From UHGV virus genome UHGV-0225709: a stretch of DNA of 10,210 nucleotides; one strand, written 5' to 3'. This DNA comes from a virus. A program made the translations under genes and the position numbers. This document shows positions 1 to 3,982 of this stretch, piece after piece. A model generated the notes under the pieces. It was not told the origin of the DNA. It saw nothing but the letters and a program-made list of their open reading frames with translations, and did no database searches. Numbering within the stretch: position 1 is the first letter of the stretch; the number at the start of each line of letters is the position of its first letter.

Positions 1-369
1 TTTTGTCATGACATCAACCCAATTCTTAATACCAGGAATCTCGGTTACTGGACAACTCATATCCCAATAACCAGCCTGTTCCCACGTTAAAACGGGCAAC
101 CGGGCGATGTTGTCACTAATGTAAGGGTACTGATTCAGACGCAGATCATCGGCTTTATCGTGACCGTCCTTTCCATAAAGAATCCATTCAGGAGATTTGG
201 AAAGCAATTTTGACAGTAGATACAAATTCTCACCGTCAGGTTTTGAAGAGCCATTTTCCCATTTTGTTACGGATACACGAGATATGCCGATTGCTTTCGC
301 AACCTGCTGTTGGGTTAATCCAACGTCTTTTCGACGATTCCGAATACGTTCGCTGATAGTGTTTTTCAT
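1..369 (-). CDS. cI: Phage repressor, lambda-cI-like with LexA/S24-type C-terminal domain (partial; the C-terminus lies beyond the window start)
   Basis: Reverse-strand reading frame is open from ATG (complement of 367-369) to the window edge, 123 codons with no stop. The translation begins MKNTISERIRNRRKDVGLTQQQVAKAIGISRVSVTKWENG, a typical XRE/Cro-C1 helix-turn-helix. It continues ...RLPVLTWEQAGYWDMS..., which resembles the lambda cI hinge around its Ala-Gly RecA-stimulated autocleavage site. Absent from the ORF track because it is truncated. Divergent from the downstream cro-like gene. Confidence 0.8.
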   Translation of the reverse strand, partial: MKNTISERIRNRRKDVGLTQQQVAKAIGISRVSVTKWENGSSKPDGENLYLLSKLLSKSPEWILYGKDGHDKADDLRLNQYPYISDNIARLPVLTWEQAGYWDMSCPVTEIPGIKNWVDVMTK

Positions 370-460
370 GTAACCAATGTTACTACCAAGTGATGTTGCT
401 ATGGTTGACATTGTTATGTAACTATTGTTACCCTTTTGCTCGAAATAACAGGAGAGTTTT
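370..460. promoter_or_regulatory. Divergent immunity promoter/operator region between repressor and cro-like gene
   Basis: A 91 bp non-coding gap lies between divergent regulator genes. Two copies of the 14 bp dyad GTAAC-N4-GTTAC occur at 370-383 (gtaaccaatgttac) and 418-431 (gtaactattgttac). A TTGACA hexamer sits at 405-410. The SD ggagag at 444-449 precedes ATG 461. I could not pair the -35 with a convincing -10. Confidence 0.55.
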
Positions 461-676
461 ATGTTCAAAGATGATGTTCTGCGCTATTTCAAAAAAAAGC
501 GACTAGTAGCTGAGGCTCTTGGAATTTCACATGTGGCTGTTGTGCGGTGGAAAGCAGTTATTCCCAAACTTCGCGCAATGGAACTGGATGAAATTACTAA
601 CGGTGAATTGAAATACAACCCAGAACTTTACAAGAAGCAGGATAGCACCTCAAACGAAGGAAAGAATGATTCATGA
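461..676 (+). CDS. cro: Cro-like small DNA-binding regulator (HTH)
   Basis: 71-aa ORF with SD ggagag 12 nt upstream. The motif KKRLVAEALGISHVAVVRWKA is a classic Cro/C1-type HTH. Position immediately divergent from the repressor gene. The stop overlaps the next start (ATGA at 673-676). Confidence 0.75.
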   Translation: MFKDDVLRYFKKKRLVAEALGISHVAVVRWKAVIPKLRAMELDEITNGELKYNPELYKKQDSTSNEGKNDS

Positions 677-1098
677 AAATCAAGCATGAACACATCCGCA
701 TGGCGATGAATGTCTGGGCGCATCCGGACGGCGAAAAAGTACCGGCTGCGAAAATTACCAAAGCGTATTTCGAGCTGGGAATGACGTTCCCGGAACTGTA
801 TGACGACAGCCATCCGGAAGCCCTGGCCCGTAATACCCAGAAAATTTTCCGCTGGGTAGAGAAAGACACCCCTGATGCAGTTGAAAAAATTCAGGCGTTG
901 TTACCAGCGATCGAAAAGGCAATGCCACCTTTGCTGGTGGCCAGAATGCGCAGCCACAGTTCAGCTTATTTTCGGGAGCTGGTGGAGACGCGGGAGCGAC
1001 TGGTGAGAGACGCTGATGATTTTGTCGCAGTGGCAATCGCCGGTTTCAATCAGATGAACCGTGGTGGCCCGGCAGGAAATGCTGTGGCAGTACATTGA
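673..1098 (+). CDS. CII-like phage regulatory protein (YdaT/CP76-like by recollection); function inferred from position
   Basis: 141-aa ORF translationally coupled to the cro-like gene by an ATGA overlap, with SD aaggaaag at 657-664. The product (MKIKHEHIRMAMNVW...) resembles, from memory, the protein encoded after cro-like ydaS in Rac-type prophages. Family assignment not verified. Confidence 0.55.
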   Translation: MKIKHEHIRMAMNVWAHPDGEKVPAAKITKAYFELGMTFPELYDDSHPEALARNTQKIFRWVEKDTPDAVEKIQALLPAIEKAMPPLLVARMRSHSSAYFRELVETRERLVRDADDFVAVAIAGFNQMNRGGPAGNAVAVH

Positions 1099-1169
1099 CT
1101 GACAATAGCCATGTCGAATCGCTTCCGGCAACTCGTGAGTAAAAAGATTCGGTATCAGAAGAGGTGAGT

Positions 1170-2240
1170 ATGGCTAACGCCTGGCTCAGATTATGGCATG
1201 ACATGCCAAATGACCCTAAGTGGCGAACAATTGCCAGGGTGTCAGGGCAGCCAATTGCAACAGTGATGGCAGTATATATCCACCTCCTGGTGAGCGCGTC
1301 ACGAAATGTCACGCGAGGTCACATTGATGTCACGACAGAAGATTTGGCAAGTGCGCTCGACGTGACAGAAGAGGTAATTGATTCAATTTTGCAGACGATG
1401 CAGGGGCGGGTACTTGATGGTGATTTAATCACTGGATGGGAAAAACGCCAGGTGCTGAAAGAGGACAACGGCAATATTTCGCAAACCGCAAAATCTCCGG
1501 CAGAGCGCAAGAGGGCGCAGCGAGAGAGGGAAAGAAAGCGGGAACAAAATGGCGATTGTCACGGCGAGTCACGAAATGTCACGCACATGTCACGACGAGT
1601 CACGACAGATAAAGATACAGATAAAGATACAGATCAAGAAGATCAAAACACTATGGTCCATGGCGTAAAAAACGCCACGAACCAGGCAGGGGATGTTCAG
1701 ACCGTCAATCTCGGTCAGCCAGCAGGCACGACACCGGAAGCCGATTCAGCGTATGCGCTGAAAGCCGATTCGGGCGCTGTGCAGCAGGTGATGACCGCAA
1801 GGCAGGAGCAATCACACCAACTTCAGCAGCCTGAAGCCGATTCCGCCATTCAGCGGGAAGCCGATCGGGTAGTCCCGGAAAACACCGGTCAGTCTGTGGG
1901 ACGAGTGGATTATCCGGATGTGTTCGAACAGGTCTGGCGGGAGTACCCGTTGCGTGCCGGAGCAAACCCGAAGAAATCCGCTTTCAGTGCCTGGAAGGCC
2001 AGATTACGCGAGGGGGTGCCACCAGAGGCCATGCTGGATGGCGTGAGGCGTTACGCAAGATACCTGGCGGCTACCGGGAAAGCGGGAACGGAATTTGTTC
2101 AGCGAGCGACGACGTTTTTTGGACCGGACCGGAATTTTGAGAACCCCTGGTTTCTCCCGGTAAGCGGCACGAACAACCAGCGTTGTGTGAATCATATTAC
2201 TGAACCGGATAACGAAATTCCGCCGGGCTTCAGGGGGTAA
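1170..2240 (+). CDS. Phage replication initiation protein (lambda-O-like organisation, iterons embedded in the gene)
   Basis: 356-aa ORF taking ATG 1170 (the track begins at GTG 1164), with SD gaggtg at 1161-1166. N-terminal region WLRLWHDMPNDPKWRTIARVSGQPIATVMAVY. C-terminal region DYPDVFEQVWREYPLRAGANPKKSAFSAWKARL...GVRRYARYLAATGKAGTEFVQRATTFFGPDRNFENPWFLP matches a motif I recall from phage replication initiator/primosomal-type proteins. Contains iteron arrays and an AT-rich tandem repeat (see repeat features). Sits in the position of P2 gene A. Confidence 0.7.
   Translation: MANAWLRLWHDMPNDPKWRTIARVSGQPIATVMAVYIHLLVSASRNVTRGHIDVTTEDLASALDVTEEVIDSILQTMQGRVLDGDLITGWEKRQVLKEDNGNISQTAKSPAERKRAQRERERKREQNGDCHGESRNVTHMSRRVTTDKDTDKDTDQEDQNTMVHGVKNATNQAGDVQTVNLGQPAGTTPEADSAYALKADSGAVQQVMTARQEQSHQLQQPEADSAIQREADRVVPENTGQSVGRVDYPDVFEQVWREYPLRAGANPKKSAFSAWKARLREGVPPEAMLDGVRRYARYLAATGKAGTEFVQRATTFFGPDRNFENPWFLPVSGTNNQRCVNHITEPDNEIPPGFRG
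1298..1334. repeat. Iteron cluster 1: four GTCAC(G) repeats at 10-11 bp phasing (putative origin element)
   Basis: GTCAC begins at 1298, 1308, 1318 and 1329. An inverted copy CGTGAC lies at 1361-1366. The 17-mer gtcacgaaatgtcacgc at 1298-1314 recurs exactly at 1568-1584. Confidence 0.7.
1558..1650. repeat. Iteron cluster 2 (five GTCACG repeats at 10-11 bp phasing) followed by an AT-rich tandem repeat; putative phage origin of replication inside the rep gene
   Basis: GTCACG at 1558, 1568, 1578, 1589 and 1599. Immediately followed by gataaagataca twice in tandem (1608-1631) and then gatcaagaagatcaaaac. This lies in the region encoding an acidic linker (DKDTDKDTDQEDQ). The arrangement parallels ori-lambda within gene O (iterons followed by an AT-rich unwinding region). 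Confidence 0.7.
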
Positions 2241-2280
2241 GTGTTAATTTCTGGTCATGAGGTAATTTTCAGGAGGGCTT

Positions 2281-2703
2281 GTGGCAAAAGTTTTTACACA
2301 AGAAGAGCGGGAAAAAATTAAAGGGCTGATCGTGGAATTCGTACGCCTTAACGGACGAGGCACGATTCGGCAGTTATCGGATGAAATTGGTGTCAGTCAT
2401 GCGTCTGTCGGTCGTTTATGCATGGAGCTGGCCGCCAGTGGTGATGTTTACAATTCCGGTTACGGAGTATTCCCGTCTGAGCAGGCGCGCAAGGACTGGC
2501 AAAACGCCCGCAAAAAACTCTCAAGGGCAAAGCTGAAGAAACCATCTGTGGTTGATCCGGACCTTATCTGGCTATTACCAGACGGCGAAATACGCCGCTA
2601 CGACAGGCGCCTAAACATAATCTGTCGCGAGTGCCGGAAGAGTGAAGCTATGCAGCGTGTACTGGCTTTCTATCAGGGTAATTTTCAGGAGACGGTACTG
2701 TGA
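2281..2703 (+). CDS. Hypothetical protein with a probable winged-HTH N-terminus and a single C-terminal CxxC
   Basis: 140-aa ORF starting at GTG 2281 with a strong SD aggagg at 2271-2276. GTIRQLSDEIGVSHASVGRLCMELAASG looks like an HTH; followed by a basic stretch (ARKKLSRAKLKK) and CRECRK. No confident family assignment. Confidence 0.6.
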   Translation: MAKVFTQEEREKIKGLIVEFVRLNGRGTIRQLSDEIGVSHASVGRLCMELAASGDVYNSGYGVFPSEQARKDWQNARKKLSRAKLKKPSVVDPDLIWLLPDGEIRRYDRRLNIICRECRKSEAMQRVLAFYQGNFQETVL

Positions 2704-2760
2704 GTGAAATTAGCTATCAGGCTTCAATTACCGCTGGCATTCGCATCAAAGGAGAGGAGC

Positions 2761-3117
2761 ATGGAAATAAAACCAGAGGATGAGTTAAGCAATATCGTTT
2801 TATTTCCGGTAAAAGAGGATGACCCTCGTAATCAGGTTAATTTTCTTTATGAGCCATCGGAAAGACCATATTGTCATCACGCCTCTGTCCGGGTTGACGA
2901 AAAAGAGCGTCAGGTCCGCTGTAAAATCTGCGGTGCAGTTGTGGAGCCGTTTGACTGGATACTCTCTGTGGCGAAAAGAGAAACCAGACTGGCAGATGAT
3001 GTAAGGCTATTGCGCCAGGAGGAACAGGAAAGGCGGAAAAATATAGAAAAGTTAATTCAGATTGAGCGTAACGCGAAAGCGCGGATACGCAGGGCGACAA
3101 AATCCAGAACTGAATAA
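2761..3117 (+). CDS. Hypothetical protein with a putative zinc ribbon (C-x17-CxxC) and a charged, probably coiled-coil C-terminus
   Basis: ATG 2761 preceded by SD aggag at 2750-2754. Product MEIKPEDELSN...CHHASVRVDEKERQVRCKICGAV...RLLRQEEQERRKNIEKLIQIERNAKARIRR. The track ORF starts at GTG 2704 in the same frame; that alternative start is not excluded and is 12 nt downstream of a second copy of the ggtaattttcaggag element. Confidence 0.6.
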   Translation: MEIKPEDELSNIVLFPVKEDDPRNQVNFLYEPSERPYCHHASVRVDEKERQVRCKICGAVVEPFDWILSVAKRETRLADDVRLLRQEEQERRKNIEKLIQIERNAKARIRRATKSRTE

Positions 3118-3167
3118 ATAAATTTAGAGCTGTAAATAAAATCTAATCCTTAACTGGAGGTATATTT

Positions 3168-3380
3168 ATGTTAAATACACAGAAAGCCATTAATGCGGAA
3201 AAATATAACGAGTGGGCAAGAAAATTCTCTGAGCAGATTTTTAAAATTACTGGCGATGAGAATGCGGCAAAAAATGAATTAGAACCGTGGACGCCTGAAG
3301 GAGCCGACTCAAATTATTGCTGGAGGGAGGTTGATCCAGTTGATGCTGCAAATGAAGCTATGAGTTATTACAACGATTAA
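3168..3380 (+). CDS. Small acidic hypothetical protein (70 aa); first gene of the AT-rich cargo segment
   Basis: ATG 3168 with SD ctggagg 6-12 nt upstream. The product has 14 Asp+Glu against 7 Lys+Arg by my count. Lies in markedly AT-rich DNA. Confidence 0.6.
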   Translation: MLNTQKAINAEKYNEWARKFSEQIFKITGDENAAKNELEPWTPEGADSNYCWREVDPVDAANEAMSYYND

Positions 3381-3390
3381 TGTCAGGAGG

Positions 3391-3406
3391 CCGCCCGAAA
3401 GGGCGG
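3391..3406 (+). other. Perfect 6 bp GC stem with GAAA tetraloop (ccgccc-gaaa-gggcgg) directly after an AGGAGG and before two ATGs
   Basis: Seen directly: aggagg 3385-3390, stem 3391-3396 / 3401-3406, ATGs at 3409 and 3413. No U-tract follows, so it is not a canonical intrinsic terminator. May be an RNA processing or translational control element. Confidence 0.5.
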
Positions 3407-3492
3407 TAATGAATGGTCACATTATTTAGAAAAAATATCCGCGAAAGAGTAGAACAACAGAATTTCTGTTTCTCATTCTGTTTATCGTGTTG

Positions 3493-3630
3493 ATGATACC
3501 GATATCCCCGCTAATCCTAGTCTGGATAATCGGAAAAATAATTGAGCCAGTTATTGAATTGTATAACGACGTGGTATGGGCGTCATTCAACACACTGCAC
3601 AATAAAATTAATCCGTATAAGGAAAACTGA
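3493..3630 (+). CDS. Candidate small hydrophobic (single-pass membrane?) peptide, 45 aa
   Basis: ATG 3493 overlaps the stop of a 26-codon upstream ORF (3413-3493) in a TGATG arrangement. Its own stop TGA 3628-3630 sits 1 nt before ATG 3632 of the next gene. Product MIPISPLILVWIIGKIIEPVIELYNDVVWASFNTLHNKINPYKEN has a hydrophobic N-terminal half. Too short for the ORF track. No classical SD of its own, so expression would depend on coupling. Confidence 0.4.
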   Translation: MIPISPLILVWIIGKIIEPVIELYNDVVWASFNTLHNKINPYKEN

Positions 3631-3631
3631 T

Positions 3632-3895
3632 ATGGCAACTTTGACAAAAAAAGAACGGGCATGGTTGAACGAATTACAGGAAGTTCTTGATCGCTGTCCA
3701 TCACCGAAAAAAATTGGCTTTTACACCATTGGCGATAAAAGCATTTACCTGTATGACCTACGCCGCATGGATGAAATCATGGAGGCTCTTGATAATCGTT
3801 CGTCAATGGATTGGTGTGTTGCTGTCCATGATATGAATGCAGGGTTTGATGAAAAGATTTTGTTCCCCTCATCAGTTGAAAGCACAGCAGGATAA
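3632..3895 (+). CDS. Hypothetical small protein (87 aa), last gene before the terminator
   Basis: ATG 3632 with SD aagga at 3619-3623. The track ORF begins at TTG 3542 in the same frame, but the internal ATG with SD is the better start. Product MATLTKKERAWLNELQEVLDRCPSPKKIGFYTIGDKSIYLYDLRRMDEIMEALDNRSS... Followed 37 nt later by an intrinsic terminator. Confidence 0.6.
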   Translation: MATLTKKERAWLNELQEVLDRCPSPKKIGFYTIGDKSIYLYDLRRMDEIMEALDNRSSMDWCVAVHDMNAGFDEKILFPSSVESTAG

Positions 3896-3931
3896 GGACC
3901 CAGCAAATATACACAACCTATAAAACACTAA

Positions 3932-3956
3932 AGCGCCTCAGGGGCGCTTTTTGTTT
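3932..3956 (+). terminator. Rho-independent terminator closing the rightward early/cargo operon
   Basis: Stem agcgcc (3932-3937), loop tcagg, stem ggcgct (3943-3948), followed by tttttgttt. Confidence 0.75.
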
Positions 3957-3982
3957 GCACAAAAGTGCACAAATTTGCACAA
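3956..3982. repeat. Three direct TGCACAA repeats at exactly 10 bp phasing, followed by a T7 tract
   Basis: TGCACAA at 3956-3962, 3966-3972 and 3976-3982. Helical phasing puts the sites on one DNA face. Candidate protein-binding array (small terminase/cosB-like or a regulator). Confidence 0.5.

What the first reader, a model, noticed from the sequence alone, without database searches (positions are those of the whole stretch)
1298..1650. Replication origin apparently embedded in the initiator gene: nine GTCAC(G) iterons in two phased arrays plus an AT-rich tandem repeat
The iterons sit at 10-11 bp (one helical turn) spacing in two clusters about 260 bp apart that share an exact 17-mer. The second cluster is followed directly by tandem gataaagataca repeats, a plausible DNA-unwinding element. 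This is the lambda O/ori architecture, here attached to P2-type head genes. The DNA repeats also create repeated peptide segments (SRNVTRGH / SRNVTHMS) in the protein.
Basis: partly seen in the sequence, partly recalled or inferred. Interest (0 to 1): 0.6.

Follow-up and report, generated by a model that had tools for sequence, protein, structure and literature searches.

The report
Replication origin inside a phage initiator gene
The short repeats are real and are kept by selection on the DNA itself, so this is most likely the prophage's replication origin sitting inside its own initiator gene, a known lambda-like design carried here by a different, little-studied protein family.

Summary
There are nine same-strand GTCAC(G) copies at 10-11 bp spacing in two arrays (1298-1334 and 1558-1604), one inverted copy at 1361-1366, a shared 17-mer, and an A-rich ACAGATAAAGAT run at 1605-1645. 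All lie inside a 356-aa initiator gene (1170-2240).

The repeats are not a by-product of coding. They fall in all three codon phases. In 22 homologous genes of 56-75% protein identity, four-fold-degenerate sites inside the repeats are frozen (0.15 versus 1.76 bits).

The design recurs at the same gene offsets in about 50 loci from many bacterial genera, with three repeat classes: GTCACG, GTAACG and CGAACGC. Two unrelated initiator N-domain families show it too. The lowest-GC stretch of the gene, a GATA(A/C)A hexamer run, almost always follows array II.

The best explanation is an iteron-type theta origin. It is lambda-O-like in logic, but the protein is a sub-threshold relative of the phage replisome organizers with a DnaD-like winged helix, not a lambda O homologue. 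No helicase-loader gene follows it.

The link to P2-type head genes is doubtful. That junction appears in no database record searched, and it lies in a 271-bp segment shared by both phage types.

Origin function has not been tested experimentally.

The parts
1170..2240 (+). Initiator gene (356 aa, ATG at 1170). Databases annotate close copies as 'phage replisome organizer' or 'DNA replication protein O'.
   Evidence: ORF. Full-length match to phrog_3729 'replication initiation protein', E 1e-255. Annotation of copies about 98% identical.
1170..1454 (+). Coding region of the N-terminal winged-helix domain (aa 1-95), the presumed iteron-binding domain.
1298..1334 (+). Iteron array I: four GTCAC(G) copies at 1298, 1308, 1318 and 1329. 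It encodes the end of helix 29-45 and the loop at aa 46-55.
   Evidence: Four-fold-degenerate third positions inside these repeats have 0.15 bit entropy against 1.76 bit outside, in 22 homologues. The offsets are the same in about 25 other loci. Structural position.
1361..1366 (-). A single inverted GTCACG copy, 33 bp from the start of the last array I repeat. It may be a tenth site, but the evidence is weaker.
   Evidence: A copy at the equivalent offset (about 192) is present in most class-A loci. It overlaps a conserved D-V-T peptide, and the codon test there is only moderately suggestive.
1558..1604 (+). Iteron array II: five GTCACG copies at 1558, 1568, 1578, 1589 and 1599. It encodes part of the disordered interdomain linker (aa 130-146).
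   Evidence: Linker pLDDT is below 50 for aa 129-158. A second array at the equivalent place is seen in about 50 loci.
1605..1645 (+). A-rich hexamer run (ACAGAT AAAGAT ... GATCAAGAAGATCAA). This is the candidate DNA-unwinding element.
   Evidence: Tandem repeat. GC minimum. In 40 of 52 loci the lowest-GC 36-nt stretch in the first 700 nt of the gene starts within -5 to +40 nt of the last array II repeat. It is a GATA(A/C)A run even in hosts of 60-69% GC, and it is read in different frames.
1872..2165 (+). Coding region of the C-terminal helical domain, the presumed helicase or loader recruitment domain.
2166..2237 (+). C-terminal tail resembling the C-terminus of E. coli DnaT (EPDNxIPPGFRG).
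   Evidence: NCBIfam DnaT positions 156-179 of 179. PDB DnaT chains 6aep, 2ru8 and 9zbt.
1..1098 (.). Immunity and early-operon context: an HTH repressor (1-369, - strand), a P22_Cro/YdaS-like gene (461-676, +) and a YdaT/CII-like gene (673-1098, +). Rightward early transcription would run through the origin.
2281..2703 (+). DUF977 gene immediately downstream of the initiator. It takes the place where relatives carry a lambda-P-like, DnaC-like or DnaB gene.
   Evidence: Relatives. The same Rep-then-DUF977 arrangement, with no loader, is seen in lambdoid phages.

Best explanation
Positions 1298-1645 are an iteron-type (theta) replication origin built into the phage's own initiator gene.

Proposed mechanism:
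1. The initiator's N-terminal winged-helix domain binds the GTCACG cores.
2. The cores sit one helical turn apart, so the bound proteins line up on one face of the DNA. They occupy two arrays: four copies plus one inverted copy, then five copies 229 bp further on.
3. Oligomerised initiator on the arrays, possibly bridging them, distorts the DNA and opens the adjoining A-rich GATA(A/C)A run at 1605-1645.
4. The C-terminal DnaD-like domain with its DnaT-like tail then brings in the host DnaB helicase, presumably with DnaC, because the module has no loader gene of its own.

Shown here: the repeats, their phasing, nucleotide-level selection on them, their deep conservation and class switching, their exclusive association with the N-domain, the low-GC run next to array II, and the replication-gene context.

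Inferred by analogy with lambda O/ori-lambda and SPP1 gp38/oriL: binding by the N-domain, melting at the run, and helicase recruitment.
For: 1. Not chance. GTCACG occurs 16 times against 4.9 expected. There are 9 GTCAC in 302 nt, and 0 of 300 simulations reach that.

2. Not coding.
- The copies lie in codon phases 2,0,1,0 and 1,2,0,2,0.
- In 22 class-A genes from different genera, four-fold-degenerate third positions inside array I have 0.15 bit entropy against 1.76 bit outside (7 versus 10 sites, complete separation, Mann-Whitney p = 3.5e-4).
- Pairwise identity is 94% at the 24 repeat nucleotides against 43% at other third positions.
- Class C shows the same trend: 0.21 versus 1.20 bit, p = 0.024.

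3. Conserved architecture.
- Arrays lie at the same offsets (about 128-159 and about 386-430) in about 25 further loci carrying GTCACG.
- At least 4 copies of the class core, mostly in two arrays at these offsets, occur in 6 loci with GTAACG and 20 with CGAACGC. Spacing is 10 or 11 bp in nearly all cases.
- The three cores share their 3' half, ACG(C).

4. The same design appears in unrelated N-domain families.
- The O157 and Stx-phage 75/02 type has AAGGGGCTT repeats. In the O157 gene (L004) they form two arrays 256 bp apart, followed by a purine run.
- DUF1376/YdaU-type genes have AACAAACGTT or AACGGACGTT arrays about 215 bp apart, followed by CATACAGATACAGATACAG.

5. An unwinding element lies next to array II in 40 of 52 loci, with a median offset of +2 nt. 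GC there falls to 0.17-0.31 even in loci of 0.58-0.69 GC.

6. Partner. Of the window's proteins, only the Rep N-domain co-occurs with the arrays outside Escherichia: 61 loci, against 3 for YdaT, 0 for DUF977, 2 for Cro and 3 for the C-domain. E. coli mosaics keep GTCAC with this N-domain whatever C-domain or loader follows.

7. The fold is a winged helix of the DnaD-NTD/initiator kind. There is remote similarity to replisome organizers.

8. Genomic position. The gene sits directly upstream of lambda-P-type genes, DnaC-like genes or DnaB helicases in relatives.

9. The arrays sit where the protein tolerates change: a loop and a disordered linker. Copy number changes in frame-preserving steps; two extra repeats make 21 nt, giving the 7-aa insert TCHGVSL.

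10. In a complete 31.5-kb phage genome carrying the module, these are the only GTCAC clusters.

11. Precedents. Ori-lambda lies in the middle of gene O, with iterons plus an AT-rich tract, and extra iterons add residues to O (PMC7466680). SPP1 oriL, direct repeats plus an AT-rich unwinding element, lies inside gene 38 and is bound by gp38 (PMC6316719).
Against: - No experiment. Binding, melting and initiator-dependent replication are all inferred.
- No paper on this repeat or this origin was found.
- About 9 evaluable homologues have no obvious phased arrays in the gene (L034, L036, L046, L052, L053, L055, L056, L065, L069). The N-domain can therefore exist without them, and the origin could lie elsewhere in those elements.
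- Array I is also kept, at the DNA level, in short N-domain-HNH fusion genes that lack array II, the A-rich run and the C-domain. This suggests array I may have a role separable from origin firing.
- No residue of the predicted recognition helix was found to co-vary with repeat class. The main class-specific protein difference is the loop that array I itself encodes.
- The distance between the arrays varies (about 215-270 bp), so strict helical phasing between them is not evident.
Confidence: 0.75

Rival explanations
1. The arrays, or array I alone, are control sites rather than the start site. The initiator binds its own coding DNA to repress or block its own expression, to titrate itself, or to pair copies ('handcuffing'). 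Replication starts elsewhere, or only at array II.
For: Array I is kept at the nucleotide level in N-domain-HNH fusion genes that have no array II, no A-rich run and no C-domain. Only array II adjoins the low-GC run. From general knowledge of iteron plasmids, iterons commonly double as control sites.
Against: Array II plus an adjacent unwinding element is the canonical origin arrangement and is conserved in about 40 loci. Array I and array II share the same core in every class, and in the window they share an exact 17-mer. That fits one nucleoprotein complex. A control role and an origin role are not mutually exclusive.
Confidence: 0.12
2. The repeats are sites for another factor and not for the initiator. 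Candidates are a host protein or a neighbouring phage regulator such as YdaT/CII-like, Cro, the repressor or DUF977.
For: Binding by the N-domain has not been shown. The arrays are physically inside the N-domain coding DNA, so their linkage to it is partly trivial.
Against: YdaT, Cro, repressor and DUF977 homologues are absent from nearly all of the 61 non-Escherichia loci that keep the arrays: 3, 2, 6 and 0 loci respectively. The repeat core switches between GTCACG, GTAACG and CGAACGC among relatives, and to unrelated cores in other N-domain families. A conserved host factor would not explain this.
Confidence: 0.05
3. The DNA repeats are a by-product of a repeated or compositionally biased peptide (SRNVT...) that the protein needs.
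For: The peptide SRNVT(R)GH is conserved in homologues down to about 56% identity, and SRNVT recurs in the linker.
Against: - The copies occupy all three codon phases.
- Synonymous sites inside the repeats are frozen while neighbouring synonymous sites are saturated.
- Spacer codons inside the array vary freely.
- The second copy lies in a predicted disordered linker.
- Other classes show a different peptide pair (NATER.. twice) that tracks a different DNA core.
- Some homologues encode the fold without the arrays.
Confidence: 0.02
4. The repeats mainly serve as recombination joints that let initiator domains be swapped between phages.
For: In E. coli relatives, the mosaic boundaries between N-half and C-half fall just after array II and the A-rich run (query positions 528 to 546). 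Extra nuclease domains are inserted at the same place in some homologues.
Against: Ten-bp phasing, strict conservation of a 6-bp core and an adjacent low-GC run are not needed for recombination. Short 6-bp cores are poor substrates for homologous exchange. Domain boundaries in linkers are expected anyway.
Confidence: 0.04

Closest known systems
Phage lambda O protein and ori-lambda (also Stx phages P27 and 933W)
   Same: The origin lies inside the initiator gene, at the junction between the DNA-binding N-half and the C-half. Repeated initiator sites are followed directly by an AT-rich tract. Extra iterons add in-frame residues to the protein (PMC7466680). Here two extra repeats add 7 residues.
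   Different: - No sequence relationship to lambda O was detected (no Pfam hit).
- The repeats are 6-bp direct cores every 10-11 bp. Lambda has four roughly 19-bp sites with internal symmetry (the lambda site structure is from my own knowledge).
- There are two arrays, one of them inside the coding region of the DNA-binding domain.
- No P gene follows.
SPP1 gp38 (G38P) 'replisome organizer' with oriL, and Pfam Phage_rep_org_N (PF09681)
   Same: Direct repeats plus an AT-rich unwinding element lie inside the initiator's own gene and are bound by that protein (PMC6316719). The window's N-domain aligns end to end with PF09681 (profile positions 1-119 of 121) and matches PHROG 'replisome organizer' families at E 5e-6 and 1e-4. 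NCBI names close copies 'phage replisome organizer'.
   Different: The Pfam score is below the curated cut-off: 15.6 against 23.3 bits, and only 7 of 42 homologues match even at E <= 1. The host range is Proteobacteria and Acidobacteria rather than Firmicutes. SPP1 encodes its own loader and helicase; this module encodes neither.
'O-only' lambdoid replication modules
   Same: The replication module consists of a single O-like gene with no helicase or loader gene. This is reported for 34 of 314 Enterobacteriales lambdoid phages and described as unstudied experimentally (PMC12315714). The window and its lambdoid relatives have Rep followed by DUF977.
   Different: Whether the phages counted in that paper carry this particular initiator family was not checked.
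DnaD (Firmicute replication initiation protein) and RepA_N-type plasmid initiators
P2 gpA / P88-type replication endonuclease (rolling-circle start)
   Same: The window carries P88-like (P2-family) portal, terminase, scaffold and capsid genes.
   Different: Phages with these head genes encode a gpA replication endonuclease in the corresponding position. The window has none. Its early region is lambdoid, and the junction is uncorroborated.

Membership tests
Lambda O / ori-lambda type origin | Repeated initiator-binding sites located inside the initiator gene. | tested here: met
   Nine direct copies and one inverted copy lie inside ORF 1170-2240. Binding itself was not tested.
Lambda O / ori-lambda type origin | An AT-rich tract immediately next to the iterons. 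| tested here: met
   Positions 1605-1645 are about 28-33% GC and start 1 nt after the last repeat.
Lambda O / ori-lambda type origin | Initiator homologous to lambda O (Pfam replication protein O family). | tested here: not met
   The whole protein has no Pfam family at E <= 0.01. At E <= 1 the N-domain lists only Phage_rep_org_N, HTH_Crp_2 and DUF7547.
Lambda O / ori-lambda type origin | Iterons of about 19 bp with internal dyad symmetry, in a single array. | tested here: not met
   The core is 6 bp (T)GTCACG with a 10-11 bp period, all direct, in two arrays whose starts are 260 bp apart. The lambda site structure is from my own knowledge.
Lambda O / ori-lambda type origin | A lambda-P-type helicase-loader gene directly downstream. 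| tested here: not met
   The next gene is DUF977. Relatives L003, L009 and L020 do have Phage_lambda_P genes.
Lambda O / ori-lambda type origin | Initiator-dependent replication of the cloned origin. | not testable with these tools
   This needs a mini-replicon experiment.
Phage replisome organizer (Pfam PF09681, SPP1 gp38 type) | N-terminal domain matches the family profile above its cut-off. | tested here: inconclusive
   15.6 bits against a cut-off of 23.3, E 0.017, but covering profile positions 1-119 of 121. Seven of 42 homologues match, best E 3.3e-4. PHROG 'replisome organizer' families 4880 and 5968 match at E 5e-6 and 1e-4.
Phage replisome organizer (Pfam PF09681, SPP1 gp38 type) | Winged-helix, DnaD-NTD-like fold of the N-domain. 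| tested here: met
Phage replisome organizer (Pfam PF09681, SPP1 gp38 type) | Direct repeats plus an AT-rich unwinding element inside its own gene. | tested here: met
   The precedent is described in PMC6316719.
Phage replisome organizer (Pfam PF09681, SPP1 gp38 type) | Specific binding of the protein to the repeats. | not testable with these tools
   Indirect support only: the repeat class tracks the N-domain lineage, and no other neighbouring protein co-occurs with the arrays.
DnaD-like protein (DDBH1 + DDBH2 domains) | C-terminal DnaD-type domain. | tested here: inconclusive
P2-type replication (gpA endonuclease with its origin in gene A) | Presence of a gpA-type replication endonuclease gene. 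| tested here: not met
   None of the window ORFs scanned matched a gpA-type endonuclease. It is present in P88 and PhiR44_2, which share the head genes.

The most novel reading that the evidence does not exclude
The bipartite-array plus GATA(A/C)A-run layout may be a common origin 'chassis' used by at least three unrelated phage initiator families. In it, the hexamer run would be a conserved recognition element and not merely AT-rich DNA. It resembles the single-strand ATP-DnaA 6-mer AGATCT of the E. coli unwinding element, and it could equally be read by a DnaT-like part of the initiator.

The initiator alone, through its DnaT-like tail (or DnaT DNA-binding domain in a sister variant), would load host DnaB without any phage loader. 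That would explain how the so-far unstudied 'O-only' lambdoid modules replicate.

A corollary concerns the N-domain-HNH fusions found next to rival DUF1376-type initiators. They would be origin-directed nucleases used in conflicts between phages.
Probability: 0.15. Interest if true: 0.7.

Novelty: new variant of a known kind. Interest (0 to 1): 0.45.

Why it matters
This module is common. A copy covering at least 80% of the gene region is present in 1646 of 5426 complete E. coli genomes, and relatives occur across Proteobacteria and Acidobacteria. Even so, I found no description of its origin.

It belongs to the class of lambdoid replication modules with a single O-like gene and no loader, which a 2025 survey calls experimentally unstudied (PMC12315714). 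The analysis gives a precise, testable origin: two arrays, a 6-bp core and an adjacent hexamer run. It also gives a clean experimental handle, because synonymous recoding separates the DNA site from the protein.

The three repeat classes form a natural series of specificity changes sharing an ACG(C) half. That makes the family useful for studying how initiator and origin co-evolve when both are written in the same nucleotides.

In practice the signature could be used to predict origins and incompatibility groups of prophages. If the element is simply an ordinary iteron origin, which is the most likely outcome, the gain is annotation rather than new biology.

Tried and rejected
- Protein-level repeat explanation: rejected by the codon-phase and synonymous-site tests.
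- Known RNA element: no Rfam family reaches its threshold anywhere in the window.
- Literature: searches for the repeat and for this origin found nothing specific.
- Rac prophage ydaU (DUF1376), as a possible characterised relative (oriJ): only loose 33-bp-spaced AGATGTTCAA repeats and no phased arrays. I dropped it, although other DUF1376 genes later showed the full design.
- Self-avoidance test: I expected N-domain-HNH fusion genes to avoid the repeat at the DNA level if they were origin-directed nucleases. They keep it, so that test neither supports nor cleanly refutes the idea.
- C-domain: a sequence search against solved structures found nothing for the profile. The large homology search returned mostly fragments and frameshifted products. 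The fold match to DnaD-like domains is weak.
- Specificity residues: a visual comparison of helices 56-77 and the wing across repeat classes showed nothing convincing.
- Junction with the P2-type genes: searched for in phage records, complete E. coli genomes and IMG/VR contigs. No record has both flanks.
- DnaT tail: the 2026 preprimosome paper gave no information on the function of the extreme C-terminus of DnaT.
Full report
**What is in the window**

Positions 1-3898 are a lambdoid-type early region. It holds an HTH repressor on the minus strand (1-369), a P22_Cro/YdaS-like gene (461-676), a YdaT/CII-like gene (673-1098), and a 356-aa gene at 1170-2240. After these come a DUF977 gene (2281-2703) and small ORFs. 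From 4407 onward lie P2-family portal, large terminase, scaffold, major capsid and small terminase genes.

The 356-aa protein matches phrog_3729 'replication initiation protein' over its full length (E 1e-255). Copies about 98% identical are annotated 'phage replisome organizer' or 'DNA replication protein O' in E. coli prophages and in phages Tritos, Evi, 204576 and vB_EcoS-640R1. A copy covering at least 80% of the gene region is present in 1646 of 5426 complete E. coli genomes.

- GTCAC lies on the + strand at 1298, 1308, 1318, 1329 and at 1558, 1568, 1578, 1589, 1599. A tenth copy is inverted at 1361-1366.
- GTCACG occurs 16 times against 4.9 expected, and 0 of 200 shuffles reach 16.
- GTCAC is the most clustered 5-mer in the window, with 9 copies in 302 nt. 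None of 300 first-order Markov simulations reaches 9 for any 5-mer.
- The 17-mer GTCACGAAATGTCACGC is at 1298 and 1568.
- ACAGATAAAGAT is repeated 2.9 times from 1605. That stretch is the GC minimum of the gene.

**The repeats are selected as DNA, not as protein**

The nine direct copies occupy codon phases 2,0,1,0 and 1,2,0,2,0.

I fetched 63 loci encoding relatives of the N-terminal domain, each from the representative genome of a different bacterial species. I then aligned the first 100 codons of 22 genes that carry GTCACG; their proteins are 56-75% identical to the window's. At codons with an invariant amino acid and four-fold degeneracy, third-position entropy is 0.15 bit at the 7 sites inside the repeats and 1.76 bit at the 10 sites outside. 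There is no overlap between the two groups (Mann-Whitney p = 3.5e-4).

Pairwise identity is 94% over the 24 repeat nucleotides and 43% at other third positions. Spacer codons inside the array are as saturated as the rest of the gene. A smaller test on the CGAACGC class gives the same direction: 0.21 versus 1.20 bit, p = 0.024.

**The architecture is conserved and the core switches**

GTCACG arrays lie at the same gene offsets (128, 138, 148, 159, with a second array near 386-430) in about 25 further loci. These come from Aquitalea, Rahnella, Serratia, Bordetella, Pseudomonas, Acidovorax, Stenotrophomonas, Chromobacterium and others.

More distant homologues mostly have two arrays at the same offsets but with other cores: GTAACG in 6 loci and CGAACGC in 20. 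Spacing is 10 bp (96 cases) or 11 bp (28 cases) in class A, and 10 bp (58 cases) or 11 bp (4 cases) in class C. The cores are (T)GTCACG, (T)GTAACG(C) and CGAACGC, so they share the 3' half ACG(C).

Each class produces its own pair of repeated peptides. For example, NATER.. appears both in the domain and in the linker, mirroring SRNVT.. here. This is exactly what a DNA-driven repeat predicts.

Nine evaluable homologues lack obvious arrays. The fold therefore does not require them.

**The A-rich run belongs to the design**

In 40 of 52 loci with arrays, the lowest-GC 36-nt stretch in the first 700 nt of the gene begins within -5 to +40 nt of the last array II repeat (median +2). Several of the exceptions are artefacts of stray motif matches further downstream.

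The stretch is a run of GATAAA or GATACA hexamers even where the locus is 58-69% GC. It is read in different frames in different genes (DKDKD, TDTDTD, LDKRR), so it too looks like a DNA feature.

**The same design appears in unrelated initiators**

E. coli mosaics are informative.
- A prophage with the same N-half, a different C-half (Pfam DnaT DNA-binding domain) and a lambda-P-like gene keeps GTCAC, in arrays of 6 and 5 copies.
- An O157:H7 prophage and Stx phage 75/02 have an unrelated N-half joined to the window's C-half, followed by a DnaC-like gene. They carry AAGGGGCTT repeats instead. In the O157 gene these form two 11-bp-phased arrays 256 bp apart, followed by a purine run.

DUF1376 (YdaU-type) initiator genes found later have AACAAACGTT or AACGGACGTT arrays about 215 bp apart, followed by CATACAGATACAGATACAG.

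At least three N-domain families therefore share this layout: one array in the region that encodes the DNA-binding domain, a second in the linker, and a GATA-type run after it.

**Which protein goes with the repeats**

Outside Escherichia, the loci that keep the arrays almost never contain homologues of the window's YdaT (3 loci), Cro (2), repressor (6), DUF977 (0) or C-domain (3). All 61 contain the N-domain.

Array I encodes the end of helix 29-45 and the loop 46-55, which also accepts insertions in homologues. Array II and the run encode a linker with pLDDT below 50. Copy number changes in frame-preserving steps; two extra repeats make 21 nt, giving the 7-aa insert TCHGVSL. Stx phage O proteins show the same phenomenon (PMC7466680).

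In relatives, the gene sits directly upstream of lambda-P-type genes, DnaC-like genes or DnaB helicases. In a complete 31.5-kb phage genome carrying the module, the two arrays are the only GTCAC clusters.

**Mechanism**

The most likely reading is an iteron-type theta origin. The initiator binds through its winged-helix domain to repeats phased on one face of the helix. It forms a complex on the two arrays and opens the adjacent A-rich run. Its C-terminal half then recruits the host helicase.

The C-half matches a PHROG family called 'DnaD-like helicase loader'. It is shared with the 'replication protein O' of SfV, Stx, Burkholderia, Ralstonia and Vibrio phages. It ends in a 24-residue tail like the C-terminus of E. 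coli DnaT.

No loader gene is present in this module or in its lambdoid carriers. This matches the 'O-only' lambdoid modules that a 2025 survey calls unstudied (PMC12315714).

Binding, melting and recruitment are inferred by analogy with lambda (PMC7466680) and SPP1 (PMC6316719). They are not shown here.

**Comparison with known families**

The element works like lambda O/ori-lambda, but the protein is not a lambda O family member. There is no Pfam hit. The cores are short direct repeats, there are two arrays, and no P gene follows.

It is best described as a distant, sub-threshold relative of the phage replisome organizers. The PF09681 match is end to end but scores 15.6 against a 23.3-bit cut-off, and PHROG replisome-organizer families match at E 5e-6 and 1e-4.

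**The P2 connection is doubtful**

The head genes are P88-like at 96-98% identity. P88 and PhiR44_2 carry a gpA replication endonuclease in the equivalent position.

Similarity to lambdoid prophages runs to 3898, and similarity to P88-like phages starts at 3628. The two halves therefore overlap in a 271-bp gene that both phage types carry.

No record has both flanks. I checked 50,697 phage records, 5426 complete E. coli genomes and the eight IMG/VR contigs that contain an exact 40-mer from 3897-3936, just past the shared segment. The window is either a rare recombinant through that gene or an assembly join.

**An unexplained side result**

Several homologues consist of the N-domain fused directly to an HNH nuclease. 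In three contigs (L084, L085, L086) the stop codon of this gene overlaps or abuts the start of a DUF1376-type initiator gene, which is followed by DUF6475 or a DnaB helicase.

These fusion genes keep array I at the DNA level, in both the GTCACG and the CGAACGC classes, although they lack array II, the run and the C-domain.

They may be origin-directed nucleases aimed at rival replicons. From my own knowledge, that logic is reported for ICP1 Odn; I saw only the title and abstract of PMC8263062. Alternatively, array I may have a role, such as autoregulation, that is separable from origin firing. This is the main reason I keep a control-site rival at about 0.12.

**Verdict**

It is a variant of a known kind of element, not a new kind.

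Noticed in passing
window 2166-2237 (aa 333-356): The last 24 residues of the initiator (GTNNQRCVNHITEPDNEIPPGFRG) resemble the extreme C-terminus of E. coli DnaT (..EPDNHIPPGFRG). A sister variant of the initiator (L003) instead carries the Pfam DnaT DNA-binding domain (E 1e-17). Different C-halves seem to borrow different parts of the host primosome protein.
   Followed up: partly
window 3628-3898, with the junction to 3956: The window is lambdoid up to 3898 and P88-like (P2 family) from 3628. The 271-bp overlap is a small gene that both phage types carry. No phage record, complete E. coli genome or IMG/VR contig examined has both flanks. It may be a rare recombinant or an assembly chimera.
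   Followed up: yes
P0042, P0060, P0073, P0101, P0109; loci L083 5001-5546, L084 2100-2660, L086 399-935, L087 380-919; also L069: Proteins of about 180 aa made of the initiator's N-domain fused to an HNH nuclease. In L084, L085 and L086 the gene's stop overlaps or abuts the start of a DUF1376-type initiator gene. They keep array I at the DNA level. They may be origin-directed nucleases or autoregulated factors.
   Followed up: partly
L084 2660-3487 and L086 935-1639: DUF1376 (YdaU-type) initiator genes have their own two arrays (AACAAACGTT or AACGGACGTT, 11-bp phase, about 215 bp apart), followed by the same CATACAGATACAGATACAG run. The bipartite layout is therefore shared by an unrelated initiator family.
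   Followed up: partly
L004 2160-2500 and L005 2080-2390: Initiators from an O157:H7 prophage and Stx phage 75/02 have the window's C-half but another N-half. They carry AAGGGGCTT repeats, which in L004 form two arrays 256 bp apart, followed by an AAGAACAGGAACAGGA-type run.
   Followed up: yes
window 1605-1645 and the equivalent runs in about 40 loci: The hexamers AGATAA, AGATAC and AGATCA resemble the single-strand ATP-DnaA 6-mer AGATCT of the E. coli unwinding element (PMC4285127). Two GATC (Dam) sites lie at 1631 and 1640. This is a resemblance only and was not tested.
   Followed up: no
L053 2501-3688 and L065 2501-3802: In two homologues (Serratia, Pantoea), an extra domain of about 100 aa that looks like a GIY-YIG-type nuclease (my reading of the sequence; not scanned) is inserted between the N-domain and the linker, and the phased arrays are missing. 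The origin region may be a hotspot for nuclease insertion.
   Followed up: no
window 3933-3982: A hairpin followed by a T run (aaagcgcctcaggggcgcttttt), typical of an intrinsic terminator, is followed by three TGCACAA(A/T) repeats at a 10-bp period (3956-3982). It lies in the P88-like part, upstream of the portal gene.
   Followed up: no
window 2281-2703: The DUF977 gene ('LygF' or 'Ren-like exclusion protein' in some annotations) always follows this initiator in the E. coli carriers seen, yet it is absent from all 61 non-Escherichia loci examined.
   Followed up: partly
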